In this document: positions 1 through 48,000 of the stretch, piece after piece
Numbering within the stretch: the first letter of the stretch is position 1
Layout: every line of letters starts with the position of its first letter
Source of the DNA: Perna viridis
Taxonomy: Eukaryota
Assembly: GCA_037379345.1 (NCBI GenBank)
Contig: CM074515.1
Coordinates: 2,108,001 to 2,172,000, forward strand
Reading direction: 5' to 3'
DNA: 64,000 bases
Position numbers: made by a program

Positions 1-3000
1 CAAGAGTTCAAATAGTTCATCACAATTTCAAAAGCATTCAAAATTATAATCAAAATCAAATTTATGGAATTCATTGGTAAAACAAGAGGCTCCCATGAGC
101 CTGAATCACTCACCTGGTTAAATTTTTGCCTTTTAAGGGCAATAACTCTAACATGGAGTTGTCAGGCAATTTTGACTCCATTTGATTCATTGGACACATT
201 TGTAAGCCTTATAATAAGGATCATTTCAGCAACTGAAAGCTATTGGCTAAACGTAACAGATTTGGAGATGTATACAAAAATCTGCTGTCTGACCCCATTG
301 TTCTATTTTTAAAAAGGGCAGCCATGTTTTTTCAGCGACAAAAATTTGTCATTTCATTAAGGATACTCTAAAAAACAAAAAGAGGCTCCCAGGAGCCTGA
401 ATCACTCATGTGGTTGAATTTTGCCTTTCAAGGGCAATAAATTAGACAAGAAATTGTCCAACAATTTGGACTCAAGAAACCTTTGATAGGATTTATCATA
501 AGGATGGTTTCAGTAAATGAAAGTCTAAATCTATCATAGTTTTCAAGACATTGGCTGAATACTGTAGGAAAATAAAAAACAGTCATTTTCCCCTGTCAAC
601 GGCAATAACTCTTATAAGAAAGCATCTGACAAATTTTATGCCTGAAGACTTTTGTAGTCCTAAAAATAAGGATAATTTCAGCTATTGAAAGAATTTGGCT
701 AAATCTAACAGTTTTGAGATATATGCGAAAAACTACTGTCTGAACCCTATGTTCTATTTTTAGTAACAGTGGCCATGTTTTTCGACGGATCAAAAAAACC
801 CACTTGAATTCTATGCAGGATACCCCAAGAAACACTTATACCGAGTTTTGTTTTAATTGGTAAAATAGTGTAAGTGGAGAAGATTTTTGAAAGAAATAAC
901 ATTAAAAATAACAAAAAACTTTGAAAAAGGGCAATAACTCCAACATGGCTTAATAGATTAAAATGAAAATTTGACCACAGATAGATCTCATCATGCTGAC
1001 CACTTTAACCCCGTCAGAATTTGGATAAACCTAACGGTTTTGGAGATATATGAAAAAAACTACTGTCTGACCCCTACATTCTATTTTTAGTAATGGTGTC
1101 CATGTTTTTCAACAGACCATAAATCCCCAAATCAGTTCTATGCAGGATACCCATAGGAACATTCATACCAAGTTTGGTTCAAATTGGTCACATAGTTTCA
1201 GAGGAGAAGGTTTTGAAAAATTAACAACAATGATAACAGACGACAGACGATGACAACGACTACAACGGACACCAAGTGATGGCAATAGCTCACTTGGCCT
1301 TTGGCCAGGTGAGCTAAAAATAAGTGTACTAAGAAATACCTGGCAGAAAACAAAACATCATTTTACATGCACTCAACATTTATGGTCTTGATTTGAAGTT
1401 ATAACTTTAGATATATTACAATTTCAATCAGATTTGTAACAATCTTTCTGATTGGTTTGTTGTTTTTGGGCAATTCAGATTATTTTGTATAATCTGGATT
1501 GGTACTGTGATGGCATGTTCTTCAACTGGTCTTTGGTACATTAAATAATCGCATACTAAATAAAGCTTTGATTAAGAATTAACTCTGTACTTGGACTGGA
1601 ATCCATTATAAGGATTGTATTTAATTTCTGAGCAAGCTATGATTTCATAACCAACTCCGAGACAATTTACAATTGTTAACAAAAATGCTTTTTTGGTTCA
1701 TAAACATAACCTTTCCTCTAAGTTGGTTATATCACAGATATTGGTCAAAAAACAATCCTTATAAAGAAATGATATCTTACAAATATAACCACATGTTCCT
1801 GAGACAGAGTAAAATACTAACTGATGTTCCTAGTACTAATGCACTGCCTGGTGTGGGGATCAAACACCTCTGATTTAGAGCAATGCTGAACAGATACAGT
1901 CCTGTTCTGTTGGCACAGTACATACATATCTGTCCATAACTTTCCAGTAAAGACCTGCTGCCCATCCTGTTTGCCTACACAGCTAGACAGGCGATCTTGG
2001 CAAGGTTCACAAGTAGGATCATTGTAACAAATGTTCTGTATATATTCACCTGTAAATAGATAACACCAAAGCATAAAATTAATGTAATTTACTGTTGAAA
2101 TAAAGATAATACATTTACATGTAGTTAATGTTAAAAATAATGGTTCTAACTATCAAAGGTTTTTATATCACTATGAAAACAACAATTATCATGTTCTGAT
2201 CCTCATATGATACTTTAAAGTGAAAATCCTGCAATGAAATAGTTATTATTTATTTGCAATCATATCAAACCCATACAAGCACAATAATAAAGAAATACAA
2301 AACTTCACAGTAAAACATGAAATTCAGGTGATTTTCTTAAGAAGTTCATTTCACAAGATTGTCATGAATGATAAGTTCATAAGAATTCCATATGAAGGCT
2401 TGAAAGAATTTTTTTCTGTTGAAAATTGTAGGAATTATTTTGTCAGGACAAAGTTTTATTCATTTAAACTGATCATACACAATTTGTTTTTAAGACAATG
2501 TTTCTTTTTACTTACATGGTGACTGATGTTCTGGTCTGTGTTTACAGCTGACAGATGTAAATTTCTCACACTGATTGGTTACAGTGGAGAACATGTCAGG
2601 ATATGGACATTCCATTACATTCCTCCCATATCTAGTCAGCCCAACAGAACAGTTATAGTATTGTACACAGTTATCTCCCTTGGCAAGGATAGCGGTTGGA
2701 TGTGCTTTACAATATTCTGGTATTGTGTCTATAAAGTAAATAAGTAAAAGATGAACTTAATTGTATTATGATGAAATGAATAATAAAAACTGAGACTAAT
2801 TTATAGTGTCTGAAAAAGCTTTTCAATAAATTAAATAGTGTTATACAATCAATCAGTGTGCCTTTATGCTACCTCAATTTCCAAATAATAATCATTGTGT
2901 TAATCAAATAACAATTGTTCATCATTTTACATTAAAACATAAAAGTCCTACTAGGTCCATGTTGTGTGGTACATATCCTTGTTGTAGGGTTGAAGTATCC

Positions 3001-45000: not shown

Positions 45001-48000
45001 TCGTTATCTTCATTGTTCTATTTCTGTAACATTCGATGTAATCAGGTTCACCTCTTTTCCCTGGAAATTCCTGTTTTCCATCAATTTTCCCAATACAGCT
45101 TGGCAAGCGTTTTGGGCAATTGCAAGTAGGATCACTTCCGTTGCATTTATTTTGGACGTATTCACCTGGTCGTAAAGAGAAGAAAAAGGAACAAGCCTGG
45201 TGAAACGCAACAAATGCACCATCGTATAACCCATATATATATATTTTTTTAAATACTTACAAAGATCACCAAAACATCGTCAGTAAGTGTAAACATATCT
45301 TTAAGTAAGCCCTAAAAGGCCCCGACAACAAAAGTAATAAAATCCACGGTGACAGAACGATGACACCCCTTCAAAATAAACTGAAATGGATAATAACGGA
45401 ACGAAGACACATTAATGACCAACACTGACATTAGGGCGAAATCATTTTTTTTTATACTAACCAAGAATCATGCTGCAAGCCCAGCAGACAGTTTGGAATA
45501 GTGGACAAACATCCGACATTGATAAAATCTGATTAAGGCAATCACAAATCACAAAAAAACGTGCTTCAGAAGTGATTTTTACCAACTGAATTAACAAGAT
45601 TTTACCTAAGGTGTTCCAGTATAAAATATAATTGGGATAACTGTAAATAAGTATCGAGAAGATCTCTCTTTACTTGTAGAAGTGCAGTGTAACATTGAAA
45701 TCATTATGTAATCACTTTGATGCTTAAGAGAGACCACCAATATTTATGGACACAATTTGAAGTTATCAATGTACTTACAAGGGGCTTGTGGTTCTGGTCT
45801 TAAATTACATTTTACAGTCTCAAACTTCTGACATCTGTTTGTAACCGAAGAAAATAAATCTGGATAGGTACATTCTTTAAGGTAGTTTTGTCCTAAAGCA
45901 GATCTCTTGTGACCACAGTCGTAGTATTGTGCACAGTCTACAGGGTTAGGAAGTAATGCTCCTGGGTTGTTCTTGCACGCGATGTTGGGATCAACTAGAT
46001 AACATCAATGGTTATAAATTCTTAGTTCATTACAAAAGATGTTGTCATGTTCGTATAAGAGAGTACATTGAAACTATTTAAAATGTCTCTAATTTTTTTC
46101 TGAAGTAATTGTCCGGACTATACGTTGCTTGTTACACACATACGTAAAGGTTTAAGGATGGCCTAAGTTTTATATTATCATAATCCAACATGTATAAAAC
46201 TGTGATGCTTATGTTAAGTGCTAATGTTTTCATATAAAAAGTGTAGCAATACTCAGCTATATGACGAAAGAAATGGAATTTTTTCTATTGTAAAAATGAA
46301 GGAAGCCAAACTTACGTGGACAGTTAACACCTGTATCACATGGCTTTGTTTCTTGTTCATTTCCTGTACAATTTTTTCCATTATACATCGGCGCCGGATT
46401 GTCACATGTCCTGTTCCGTACAAACACCCCTTGGCCACAGGTTACTGAACAAGCTCCAGACCACGGACCCCATTGTCCCCAGTCCCCATCGACTGTTTCA
46501 GGTAAAAAAAAAACGTTTTGGGTTGTGTTTTTTTATGATTCGAGGATTTTAAGAAGAGAAATATTGAATTCCAGGAGGAAGTGATAATTGTTAGTGTGTG
46601 GTGATACCGAAAATGACGATGAAGCACTGGCACAGGATTATACACAAAATAAATGTACTTTGACCCTTTAATATCAGCTTGAAATGTTTGACTTCGGTCG
46701 CATGCTTCGTGTTATTTGCTGTTTCTGTTATTGTTTCTTACCTCAAAGATAGAAATAATGAGTATCTTTAACAATTGATTCCTTCATTTCTATTGCTCAA
46801 CTTATTTGAAACATTTAGGCTGTATAACACTAAATCAGATACATTACAAAAATGTAGTTTGGACAACTTACTTGGTGTGGGATCAGTGCAGTCTTCGTCA
46901 ACACGCCCATCGCCATCATCATCTAAAATAGAACTTAGTGTTACAATTAAAAAAAGGCATTGGAAATTGCTTGTTTTTAATCAAATGAAGTTAAAAGCGT
47001 AAAACAAGTGAAGATGACTCGATTACGGTTTAAACATTAGCGAAATATATATGGTGTTATTTGAGGAAAAAATCTGAACGTAATAGATTTTGTAATTTCC
47101 GATCAGTAGAAGTAAAACAATGATACATTAACAATATAAACACCTGTTTTCATATTGTCTACGGTACAGAGTTCTTCGTCTATCTTGCCATCACAGTCGT
47201 TATCTAGCCCATCACCTTTCACTGTCGGCGTCGGTTTACATGGCTGTAATATAGAAATACAATCTAAAGATCTTGAAAAGACTATAATCTACAAAAAATT
47301 CCGTGTTCATATAACAAGGAACTCTTTAATGTTAAAAAGAAAAGGTAGTACTATTATAGTCGTAAGAGCATTCAAGTTTCCTCAAAATATCGTTATCCAG
47401 AAATAATGACCACGTCTCAGCGTAAACATGACATACAGCAGGACAAGAAAGTCAAATACGGTCATTATAAGTGGTTGACCGAACATTCCGAAAATCATTT
47501 AGTGCAACTAATTCTGCCATTTTTCATTGTACGGTATTTGATTTTTGTGCGTTTTCGAATATGGCTTTTGCCCTTTTAAGACTGGAACTTAGTCTACATA
47601 AAGACAAATATCTTGAAAAAGAAAATTAGTAAAGTTGAACTGCCTTTTATTCTACTCACCGCATTAATTTTTGCCAGTCTCATTCCTGTAGGAAAAGCAT
47701 ACGATTCATGGTATGCATGTCCATACAGATAACTTCCAAATATTGTATACGAGTCTTTGTGCACTACTTGATGAGAACCTTTAGGAATATCTACGTATGT
47801 TCCGACGAGAGACGTTCCTTCAATCGGGTTCCATTTTGTTCCTTTAGGTAAAGGTTTGCCATCCAATAACAAACCATCTTTTTTAGACGCATCAATAACC
47901 AACAGAATTTGATTTTCATATTTAAAGTACTCCGGGTGGGAGTATTCTGGAGTGGCGAAAGTATAACCCGAGTTGAACAACTCGTAGGGCGGTATAATCA

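What the first reader, a model, noticed from the sequence alone, without database searches (positions are those of the whole stretch)
1822..45994. Obligate two-exon A-B module whose linking cysteine is created only by splicing
Seen: all 21 A exons end in T and all 21 B exons begin GT, so every A-B junction encodes Cys (usually ..APC-EY..). A holds the full 6-Cys pattern. B holds three linker cysteines that make four with the junction Cys, then a domain with only C1, C3, C4 and C5; C2 is Trp in 20 of 21 (Gly in B1) and C6 is absent. All 21 B exons keep an N-R-T sequon just after C3. Known: CBM14 disulfides pair C1-C3, C2-C6 and C4-C5, so B lost exactly one pair. Inference: the real unit is a ~150-aa disulfide-stapled, N-glycosylated didomain, possibly an unnamed family.
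Basis: partly seen in the sequence, partly recalled or inferred. Interest (0 to 1): 0.7.

Follow-up and report, generated by a model that had tools for sequence, protein, structure and literature searches.

The report
Mussel gene of alternating chitin-binding domains
A mussel-type gene encodes a very large secreted protein made of at least 21 repeats of two different chitin-binding-type domains, one exon each. The pattern is real and conserved across molluscs, but the cysteine "made by splicing" simply reflects where the introns sit.

Summary
On the minus strand, 21 A and 21 B exons alternate from 45994 to 1822. All 42 have lengths divisible by 3, AG/GT splice sites and phase-1 introns, and all 21 A-B junction codons are TGT. 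A has six Cys plus the junction Cys. B has three linker Cys plus four core Cys. N-R-T is in 21/21 B exons and Trp in 20/21.

Both halves already match Pfam CBM_14 (21/21 each). The split Cys codon is an ordinary result of a phase-1 intron. TGT makes up 87% of the other Cys codons. The Trp sits one residue before the C2 column. The B core keeps the cysteines of the C1-C3 and C4-C5 bridges, the two that Der p 23 has. Across relatives the Arg of N-R-T is near-invariant but the sequon is not.

The A-B register is conserved in bivalves and gastropods: 306 of 318 adjacent domain pairs alternate. A limpet homologue is a major shell-matrix protein. The gene starts in the window: signal peptide, IgGFc_binding domain, TSP1, then the array. 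Disulfide pairing, glycosylation and chitin binding were not tested. The joined A-B fold was left out.

The parts
49726..49786 (-). Exon 1: ATG plus a signal-peptide-like leader (20 codons + 1 base), donor G|gtaagt
   Evidence: tblastn with the start of the M. edulis orthologue P0171 (E 0.002); sequence read. The phase fits exon 2.
47660..48936 (-). Exon 2: IgGFc_binding (FCGBP N-terminal type) domain
   Evidence: Pfam PF17517, E 3.4e-63, 214 bits against a cut-off of 25.6. 87.8% identical to M. edulis P0171 over 444 aa. Boundaries read.
47144..47243 (-). Exon 3: Cys-rich DGxDNDCDGxxDE motif (MopE-like). Boundaries less certain.
   Evidence: PF11617, 22.9 bits, below the cut-off of 27. Splice sites read.
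46872..46922 (-). Exon 4: short DDDGDGxxDEDC motif exon, phase 1-1
   Evidence: Sequence read. 88% identical to P0171 residues 465-481.
46316..46492 (-). Exon 5: thrombospondin type 1 repeat, phase 1-1
   Evidence: PF00090, E 1.5e-14, 54.4 bits against a cut-off of 21.6. Boundaries read.
45779..45994 (-). A1 (six-Cys CBM14 exon)
44941..45165 (-). B1 (linker plus four-Cys CBM14; Gly instead of Trp)
44384..44581 (-). A2
43622..43855 (-). B2
39476..39673 (-). A3 (preceded by the longest intron, 3948 nt)
37954..38175 (-). B3 (first linker Cys shifted)
37292..37531 (-). A4
35651..35881 (-). B4
34913..35125 (-). A5
33481..33711 (-). B5
32462..32674 (-). A6
31306..31539 (-). B6
29969..30208 (-). A7
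28600..28830 (-). B7
27159..27398 (-). A8
26194..26424 (-). B8 (starts DY)
24937..25149 (-). A9
24327..24557 (-). B9
22538..22750 (-). A10
21475..21708 (-). B10
20490..20729 (-). A11
18879..19106 (-). B11
18139..18366 (-). A12 (folded alone)
17684..17914 (-). B12 (folded alone)
17115..17309 (-). A13
16596..16826 (-). B13
16013..16225 (-). A14
15229..15456 (-). B14
13311..13547 (-). A15
11632..11862 (-). B15
10638..10832 (-). A16
9898..10125 (-). B16
9183..9428 (-). A17
8581..8802 (-). B17
7862..8065 (-). A18
7009..7239 (-). B18
5361..5573 (-). A19
4769..4996 (-). B19
4245..4457 (-). A20
2952..3179 (-). B20
2516..2728 (-). A21 (ends SPC)
1822..2049 (-). B21. Its donor A|gttagt shows the gene runs on past the window start.
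   Evidence: The partial M. galloprovincialis protein P0001 has 8 more A and 8 more B domains after its B21-like domain.

Best explanation
The window holds the 5' end and the first 47 exons of one minus-strand gene of a mytilid-type bivalve. It is not human.

The protein is very large and secreted. In order it has a signal peptide, an IgGFc_binding (FCGBP N-terminal type) domain, two short Cys/Asp-rich motifs, one thrombospondin type 1 repeat, and then at least 21 A-B pairs. The array continues beyond the window.

A is a canonical six-Cys peritrophin-A/CBM14 domain. B is a derived CBM14 that has lost both cysteines of the C2-C6 bridge, so its core is left with the four cysteines of the C1-C3 and C4-C5 bridges, the two that Der p 23 has. 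B has also gained a conserved N-terminal segment of about 23 residues, C-[ED]-Y-x-Q-N-x-C-x6-C-x2-C-P-x-R-L-P-S. The first Cys of that segment is the split junction codon.

Each domain is one phase 1-1 exon. The array grew by tandem duplication of exon pairs and larger blocks, and it has stayed under purifying selection.

Inferred, not shown:
- The junction Cys pairs within the four-Cys segment, giving two extra disulfides that cap or stiffen B. This would make A-B a semi-rigid heterotypic pair.
- The protein binds and cross-links chitin in a secreted matrix. Shell or mantle matrix is most likely, because a limpet homologue is a major shell-matrix protein. A mucus or gut lining is possible, given the FCGBP-type head.

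The 'cysteine made by splicing' has no mechanism of its own. It only marks where the intron lies.
For: Shown by calls:
- Exon model, phases and TGT junctions. There are exactly 42 full exons.
- pN is below pS in 420 of 420 within-type pairs.
- CBM_14 matches 21/21 A exons (A1: profile 1-53 of 53, 23.6 bits, cut-off 22.1) and 21/21 B exons (B12: profile 1-49 of 53, 27.0 bits).
- The AlphaFold2 model of B12 has a core pLDDT of 86-92. Its 11 best PDB matches are all CBM14-type folds: EHEP, CHIT1, Blo t 12, tachycitin, Avr4 and Der p 23.
- The canonical pairing C1-C3, C2-C6, C4-C5 is taken from passages of PMC10619976.
- Der p 23 has two bridges, Cys27-46 and Cys56-69 (passage of PMC12609036).
- The linker is conserved, not a loose spacer: Y2, N5, C14, C17, R20 and L21 are invariant in 21/21. 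The linker Cys are kept in gastropod and second-family bivalve homologues.
- The A-B register holds in 27 homologues. The residue before B is Cys in 57 of 76 and in 43 of 45 spliced models. It is Gly in 121 of 121 unspliced short ORF fragments, as expected from reading ..AG|G.. through.
- Head of the gene. The same head-plus-array order occurs in M. edulis P0171, Tegillarca P0168 and Mya P0174.
Against: - No expression, proteomic or binding data exist for this gene or its direct orthologues.
- The Lottia shell protein belongs to a more distant branch. It has no IgGFc_binding/TSP1 head, and its B domains lack the Trp and the sequon.
- Two of the closest structural neighbours, EHEP and Der p 23, do not bind chitin.
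- Foldseek E-values are weak: 0.018-0.68 for B and 0.35 or worse for A, with none at or below 0.001. The domains are small.
- The linker is modelled at only pLDDT 59-65, without its junction Cys. Its fold and pairing are therefore open.
- The tail of A that leads to the junction Cys is also modelled at low confidence (about 62). That fits a flexible hinge as well as a rigid pair.
- Twelve of 318 adjacent pairs in homologues are BB or AA. These may be real or may be gene-model errors.
- Distances among the older modules do not show that A and B were duplicated together.
Confidence: 0.62

Rival explanations
1. Beads on a string. A and B are independent CBM14 domains. Alternation persists only because duplication copies neighbouring exons together. 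There is no structural or functional coupling, and the junction Cys simply belongs to B.
For: All exons are phase 1-1, so any order keeps the reading frame. The A-to-B connection contains a Pro-rich stretch, xRxEPQAP. The model confidence is low for the A tail and for the B linker. Recent growth was by block duplication: modules 4-5-6 resemble 8-9-10, and module 7 resembles 4 and 8, at 90-99% identity. BB and AA neighbours do occur in homologues (12 of 318).
Against: Because single-exon loss or gain keeps the frame, drift should have mixed the order. Yet 306 of 318 neighbours alternate in bivalves and gastropods. Arrays and sub-blocks also start with A and end with B. The linker carries invariant non-Cys residues.
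Confidence: 0.25
2. The domains have a CBM14 fold but their ligand is not chitin. One option is polyphenol capture, as in the sea-hare protein EHEP. Others are protein or mineral binding in mucus or matrix.
For: The best structural match for both the A and B models is EHEP (8in6/8in3). EHEP and Der p 23 lack chitin binding, and the chitin-contact residues are not conserved among CBM14 proteins (passage of PMC10619976). A has an unusual invariant Y-P-D motif after C4. B has a near-universal Arg.
Against: EHEP is a compact three-domain protein, not a long array. A homologue sits in a chitin-containing shell matrix. Aromatic positions typical of the family are kept: YY before C3 in A, and Y/F before C3 plus F-x-P before C5 in B.
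Confidence: 0.15
3. The four Cys around the junction (C, C, CxxC) form a metal-binding knuckle between domains rather than two disulfides.
For: The invariant C-x2-C-P motif. There were only sub-threshold sequence hits to CxxC metal proteins: CopZ at E 0.25-0.85, and Sina_RING and DUF1272.
Against: Those hits are at chance level. The protein is secreted (signal peptide). In secreted Cys-rich domains an even Cys count normally means disulfides (general knowledge).
Confidence: 0.06
4. The array is a decaying or misassembled repeat, not a working gene.
For: Near-identical modules (4, 7 and 8; 5 and 9; 6 and 10) could reflect assembly collapse or expansion. Introns are full of minisatellites.
Against: 42 of 42 exons are open with intact splice sites. 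pN is below pS in 420 of 420 pairs. M. edulis P0171 shows the same repeated module types x-y-z-x-y.
Confidence: 0.02

Closest known systems
Peritrophin-A / CBM14 (Pfam PF01607) tandem-array proteins
   Same: Both exon types match the family model. The fold matches CBM14 structures. A has the six Cys with canonical C2-x5-C3 and C4-x12-C5 spacing.
   Different: Two fixed types alternate strictly. B lacks C2 and C6 and carries a conserved four-Cys N-terminal segment that no Pfam model covers.
Lottia gigantea shell-matrix protein Lotgi1|231869 (LOTGIDRAFT_231869, P0014)
   Same: Same A-B alternation, with Cys before B. Its B also lacks C2 and C6 and has the linker Cys and the Arg. It was reported as a major acid-soluble shell protein with peritrophin A domains.
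   Different: Distant branch: A/B domain scores are 13-73 bits against the window's models, compared with 66-108 in the oyster homologues P0002 and P0009. It has no IgGFc_binding/TSP1 head, it has a Pro-rich spacer, and its B has no Trp and almost no sequon. The paper counted 10 domains and did not separate two types.
Der p 23 (house dust mite peritrophin-like allergen, PDB 4ZCE)
   Same: A CBM14-like fold with only two disulfides, the number the four core Cys of B would allow. It is a structural neighbour of the B model (rank 9).
   Different: A single small domain with no Cys-rich extension and no array. It is reported not to bind chitin.
EHEP of Aplysia kurodai (PDB 8IN3/8IN6)
   Same: A molluscan protein made of peritrophin-A domains. 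It is the best structural match to both models.
   Different: Three six-Cys domains packed in a triangle that bind phlorotannin, not chitin. No B-type domain.
FCGBP-type proteins with the IgGFc_binding N-terminal domain
   Same: Exon 2 matches PF17517 strongly. Mya arenaria P0174 is named 'FCGBP-like protein' and has the same head plus CBM14 domains.
   Different: No VWD/TIL mucin-type repeats were found in the part of the gene inside the window. The body is a CBM14 array. Most molluscan relatives of the head carry TSP1/LDLa bodies instead.
Pif / BMSP shell proteins
   Same: Molluscan matrix proteins that use CBM14 domains, including divergent 'CBM_14-like' ones and a second atypical chitin-binding-like domain.
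   Different: They have a VWA head, one or a few CBM14 domains and a laminin G part. The atypical domain there has an extra Cys doublet, not a lost pair.

Membership tests
CBM14 / peritrophin-A (PF01607): A exons | Match to the family profile at or above the curated score | tested here: met
   21/21 A exons match with a best E of 1.3e-07. A1 scores 23.6 bits against a cut-off of 22.1 and covers profile 1-53 of 53. Per-member bit scores were shown only for the first member.
CBM14 / peritrophin-A (PF01607): A exons | Six conserved Cys with C2-x5-C3 spacing | tested here: met
   C6, C20, C26, C41, C54 and C62 are invariant in 21/21. The spacing was compared with the motif quoted.
CBM14 / peritrophin-A (PF01607): A exons | CBM14 fold | tested here: inconclusive
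   The A12 model has mean pLDDT 73. CBM14 structures lead the Foldseek list, but only at E 0.35-6.
CBM14 / peritrophin-A (PF01607): B exons | Match to the family profile at or above the curated score | tested here: met
   21/21 B exons match with a best E of 7.8e-07. B12 scores 27.0 bits against 22.1 and covers profile 1-49 of 53.
CBM14 / peritrophin-A (PF01607): B exons | Six conserved Cys (three disulfides) | tested here: not met
   Only four core Cys are present. The C2 column holds a variable residue and no Cys follows C5 in 21/21. B is therefore a derived member, not a canonical one.
CBM14 / peritrophin-A (PF01607): B exons | CBM14 fold | tested here: met
   Core pLDDT is 86-92. Foldseek ranks 1-11 are all CBM14-type structures, with TM (query) 0.41-0.56 and E 0.018-0.68, none at or below 0.001.
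CBM14 / peritrophin-A (both types) | Binds chitin | not testable with these tools
   This needs a binding assay. Some family members do not bind chitin.
Phase 1-1 exon modules of extracellular proteins (exon duplication/shuffling class; general knowledge) | One domain per exon, with both flanking introns in phase 1 | tested here: met
   42 of 42 array exons, and also the TSP1 exon and exon 4.
Molluscan shell-matrix proteins | Protein detected in a shell proteome | not testable with these tools
   Evidence exists only for the distant Lottia homologue. No paper text held the accession numbers of the closer homologues. Supplementary tables were closed.
FCGBP (IgGFc-binding protein) proper | IgGFc_binding N-terminal domain | tested here: met
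   PF17517, E 3.4e-63.
FCGBP (IgGFc-binding protein) proper | Repeated VWD/C8/TIL units (as in the fish FCGBP hits) | tested here: not met
   The exons found downstream of the head are TSP1 and CBM14 only. The gene shares the head domain but is not an FCGBP orthologue.
   The sequon is present in 21/21. Across relatives it is the Arg, not the sequon, that is conserved.

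The most novel reading that the evidence does not exclude
The A-B pair is an ancient, mollusc-wide, structurally coupled two-domain chitin-organising unit. Its second half is an unrecognised eight-Cys variant of CBM14: a four-Cys cap replaces the lost C2-C6 bridge, and a universally conserved Arg takes part in ligand binding. On this reading the unit deserves its own family definition and is a core part of the shell-matrix toolkit.
Probability: 0.3. Interest if true: 0.55.

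Novelty: new variant of a known kind. Interest (0 to 1): 0.38.

Why it matters
Chitin-binding domains are counted as one generic item in the molluscan biomineralisation toolkit. This locus shows that one large and widespread group of these proteins is built from a fixed pair of two different CBM14 types. One of the two is a reduced-disulfide form with an added Cys-rich segment. The register has been kept since before bivalves and gastropods split.

This gives a concrete unit to express, solve and assay. It gives a profile for sorting the many 'uncharacterized chitin-binding type-2' models in mollusc genomes. It also gives a way to spot gene models that have skipped exons. It does not reveal a new mechanism, and the splicing aspect is ordinary.

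Tried and rejected
- Complex prediction with A12 and B12 as two separate chains returned 'no answer' (score 0.05, mark 0.34). It is neither support nor evidence against.
- The sequence search of the B profile against PDB chains found nothing significant (best E 0.039, EHEP).
- The profile-profile comparison of A against B gave only 3.2% probability, E 0.014. I used it only as a register check alongside the fixed Cys spacing.
- The protein-atlas search on B12 returned only generic CBM14 clusters.
- The Mantel test of whether A and B of one module share a duplication history gave r = 0.64 overall, but that is driven by the recent block. Among older modules r = 0.04 for A(i)-B(i) (754 of 2000 permutations reached it) and r = 0.30 for B(i)-A(i+1) (47 of 2000). 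It is inconclusive.
- I considered that 21/21 TGT reflects a splice-site constraint on the exon start. I rejected this because 87% of the other Cys codons are TGT.
The names of most library hits are therefore unknown.
- Paper searches gave nothing useful.
- The supplements of PMC3374290 and of bivalve shell-proteome papers could not be seen. They may list orthologues.

Full report
**What is there.**
- The window is AT-rich (GC 0.25-0.38) and has one run of 132 N at 55491-55622, which I left alone.
- Stop-to-stop ORFs with many Cys line up on the minus strand from about 46000 down to 1820.
- Using conserved motifs and splice signals I defined 21 A and 21 B exons.
- All 42 exons have lengths divisible by 3, an AG acceptor and a GT donor. 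All 41 introns between them are phase 1 and are 223-3948 nt long.
- tblastn with every A and B translation finds these 42 exons, 5 short intronic fragments and nothing else, all on the minus strand.

**The observation.**
- 21 of 21 A exons end in T and 21 of 21 B exons begin GT, so every A-B junction codon is TGT.
- The 20 B-to-A junction codons are also split, but they vary: Val 13, Gly 2, Asn 2, Pro, Lys, Ala.
- A ends APC in 20 of 21 and B starts EY in 20 of 21.
- Each A has 7 Cys including the junction Cys, and each B has 7 without it.
- In B, N-R-T is invariant and Trp is present in 20 of 21, with Gly in B1.
- The copies are 40-58% identical to each other. pN is below pS in all 210 A pairs and all 210 B pairs. 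The invariance therefore reflects selection, not recent copying.
- The exceptions are modules 4/7/8, 5/9 and 6/10, which are 90-99% identical and form a recent block.

**Two corrections.**
- First, the exclusive use of TGT needs no special explanation. 237 of the 273 other Cys codons in the array are TGT.
- Second, the Trp is not in the C2 column. The canonical spacing is C1-x15-C2-x5-C3 (passage of PMC10619976). B has 21 residues between C1 and C3 with Trp as the 15th, so the variable residue after Trp is in the C2 column. The alignment to EHEP and the weak A-B profile alignment give the same register.
- The main point stands: B has neither C2 nor C6.

**What the domains are.**
- Pfam CBM_14 matches 21/21 A exons over the full profile and 21/21 B exons over profile positions 1-49 of 53. 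No Pfam family covers the first 23 residues of B. Only chance-level hits appeared there.
- B12 folded alone gives a confident core (pLDDT 86-92) and a poorly defined linker (59-65). Its eleven best PDB matches are all CBM14-type folds, although E-values are only 0.018-0.68.
- A12 folds less confidently (mean pLDDT 73) and gives the same neighbours at weaker E-values.
- The pairing C1-C3, C2-C6, C4-C5 is documented for EHEP and stated to hold for tachycitin, Avr4 and the chitinase module.
- Der p 23 has only two bridges, so a two-disulfide CBM14 core has a precedent.

**The linker.**
- The segment after the junction Cys is not a loose spacer. Y2, N5, C14, C17, R20 and L21 are invariant, and C7, P22 and S23 nearly so.
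- With the junction Cys it holds four Cys, so the junction plus B has eight Cys and A has six.
- Parity therefore allows every Cys to pair without any bond between the A core and B. I infer that the junction Cys belongs structurally to B.
- This inference is untested.

**Relatives.**
- A B exon finds long proteins in Mytilus galloprovincialis, Crassostrea gigas, Saccostrea cucullata and Tegillarca granosa.
- A profile of the 21 B exons finds 471 library proteins at E up to 0.001 and 237 at E up to 1e-10.
- A search with the library hit P0014 names it as Lottia gigantea LOTGIDRAFT_231869. It also adds homologues from Patella, Bradybaena, Bulinus, Biomphalaria, Babylonia and Nucella among gastropods, and Mytilus edulis, Potamilus, Solemya, Mya and Crassostrea virginica among bivalves.
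- With HMMs made from the window's A and B exons, 27 long homologues give these adjacent pairs: AB 162, BA 144, BB 7, AA 5. The first domain is A in 19 of 27. The last domain is B in 18 of the 21 that reach the protein end. After an internal spacer the next domain is A in 8 of 9.
- The residue before B is Cys in 57 of 76 and in 43 of 45 cases.
- In 121 of 121 short one-exon ORF fragments from unnamed sources that residue is Gly. This is what reading through ..AG|G.. gives, so the intron position appears widely conserved. It is indirect evidence, because no DNA was seen.
- The BB and AA cases may be skipped exons in automatic gene models. I could not check them.

**What is conserved where.**
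- The linker Cys and the four core Cys are kept in all groups.
- The Arg of N-R-T is kept in 28/28 gastropod, 32/36 second-family bivalve and 64/64 first-family B domains.
- A sequon at that place is found in only 1/28, 12/36 and 63/64 respectively.
- Trp is kept in 61/64 of the first family and is replaced by Leu, Met or Phe elsewhere.
- The motif is therefore conserved for a reason other than, or in addition to, glycosylation.
- A also carries an N-C-[ST] sequon at C3 in 17 of 21 exons. 11 of 21 B exons have a further sequon in the linker.

**The whole gene.**
- Upstream on the same strand lie five more exons: a TSP1 exon (46316-46492, PF00090, E 1.5e-14), two short Cys/Asp-rich exons, a 1277-nt exon with an IgGFc_binding domain (PF17517, E 3.4e-63), and a first exon with ATG and a hydrophobic leader (49726-49786).
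- The intron phases fit one another.
- Mytilus edulis P0171 has the same order from the signal peptide through the first A-B modules. It is 87.8% identical over the large exon, with module identities up to 89%.
- Tegillarca P0168 and Mya P0174 ('FCGBP-like protein') share the head plus CBM14 domains.
- The source is therefore a mytilid-type mussel, not human.
- B21 ends at a donor site. In the partial M. galloprovincialis protein P0001, the domains that match B17, B19, A21 and B21 at 73-87% identity are followed by eight more A and eight more B domains. The array thus continues beyond the window.

**Function.**
- The only experimental anchor is the limpet homologue. Table 3 of Mann et al. [quoted passage not shown]
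- My HMMs see ABABAB, a spacer, then ABABAB in that protein.
- On this basis I rate a chitin-binding matrix role as most likely. A mucus or gut role (FCGBP-type head) and a non-chitin ligand (EHEP, Der p 23) are the alternatives.
- No paper text held the accession numbers of the closer homologues. The searches turned up no description of two alternating CBM14 types or of the four-Cys segment.
- Supplements were closed and may hold relevant proteome tables.

**Verdict.**
- The splicing-made Cys is ordinary and the domains belong to a known family.
- The fixed A-B pair, with an eight-Cys B variant conserved across bivalves and gastropods, is a real and apparently undescribed variant worth a structural and biochemical test.

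Noticed in passing
window 31078-31336, 21417, 15732-16066, 8316-8633, 5248-5385 (minus-strand introns after B6, B10, A14, B17, A19): Five exons have their own 3' end plus GT donor copied in tandem in the following intron, 1-4 extra copies each, with periods of 58, 70, 84 and 46 nt. The offsets are not multiples of 3, so using these decoy donors would shift the reading frame.
   Followed up: partly
window 3280-3418, 5875-6444, 10897-11142, 12019-13205, 13661-13934, 14643-15231, 19382-20318, 41014-41767: Many introns of the gene hold minisatellites with periods of 21-160 nt. The last one lies in the AT-richest stretch of the window (GC 0.245 at 40001-42000).
   Followed up: no
window 21475-37531: A recent block duplication. 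Modules 4-5-6 and 8-9-10 are pairwise 90-99% identical, and module 7 is a further copy of the type of 4 and 8. M. edulis P0171 shows the same x-y-z-x-y order of module types.
   Followed up: partly
window 42548-42627 and 43498-43577: An inverted repeat of 80 nt, 85% complementary, with arms 870 nt apart, inside the 3.9-kb intron between B2 and A3. It may be the ends of a small mobile element.
   Followed up: no
window 57508-58506 and 56347-56706, minus strand: A neighbouring gene upstream. One long ORF carries leucine-rich repeats (LRR_8, E 4.8e-29). A second ORF contains a hydrophobic stretch that looks like a membrane anchor (by eye).
   Followed up: partly
P0004 and P0168 (Tegillarca granosa KUTeg_006023 and KUTeg_006031; both list a longest contig of the same length): The head (signal peptide, IgGFc_binding, TSP1, first A) and an A-B array are annotated as separate nearby genes. 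The array model contains B-B junctions with Gly, as expected if A exons were skipped. This is likely one gene split by automatic annotation.
   Followed up: partly
one search hit list: The IgGFc_binding domain of exon 2 also finds many bacterial proteins (Bacteroidota, Planctomycetota) that combine it with PKD and gliding-motility-type domains, at 25-35% identity.
   Followed up: no
window 55491-55622: A run of 132 N (assembly gap or mask) between this gene and the LRR gene. It was left untouched.
   Followed up: no
A exons, column of C3 (for example window 17113-17307): 17 of 21 A exons carry an N-C-[ST] sequon whose middle residue is the C3 cysteine. 11 of 21 B exons have an extra sequon in the linker.
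   Followed up: partly
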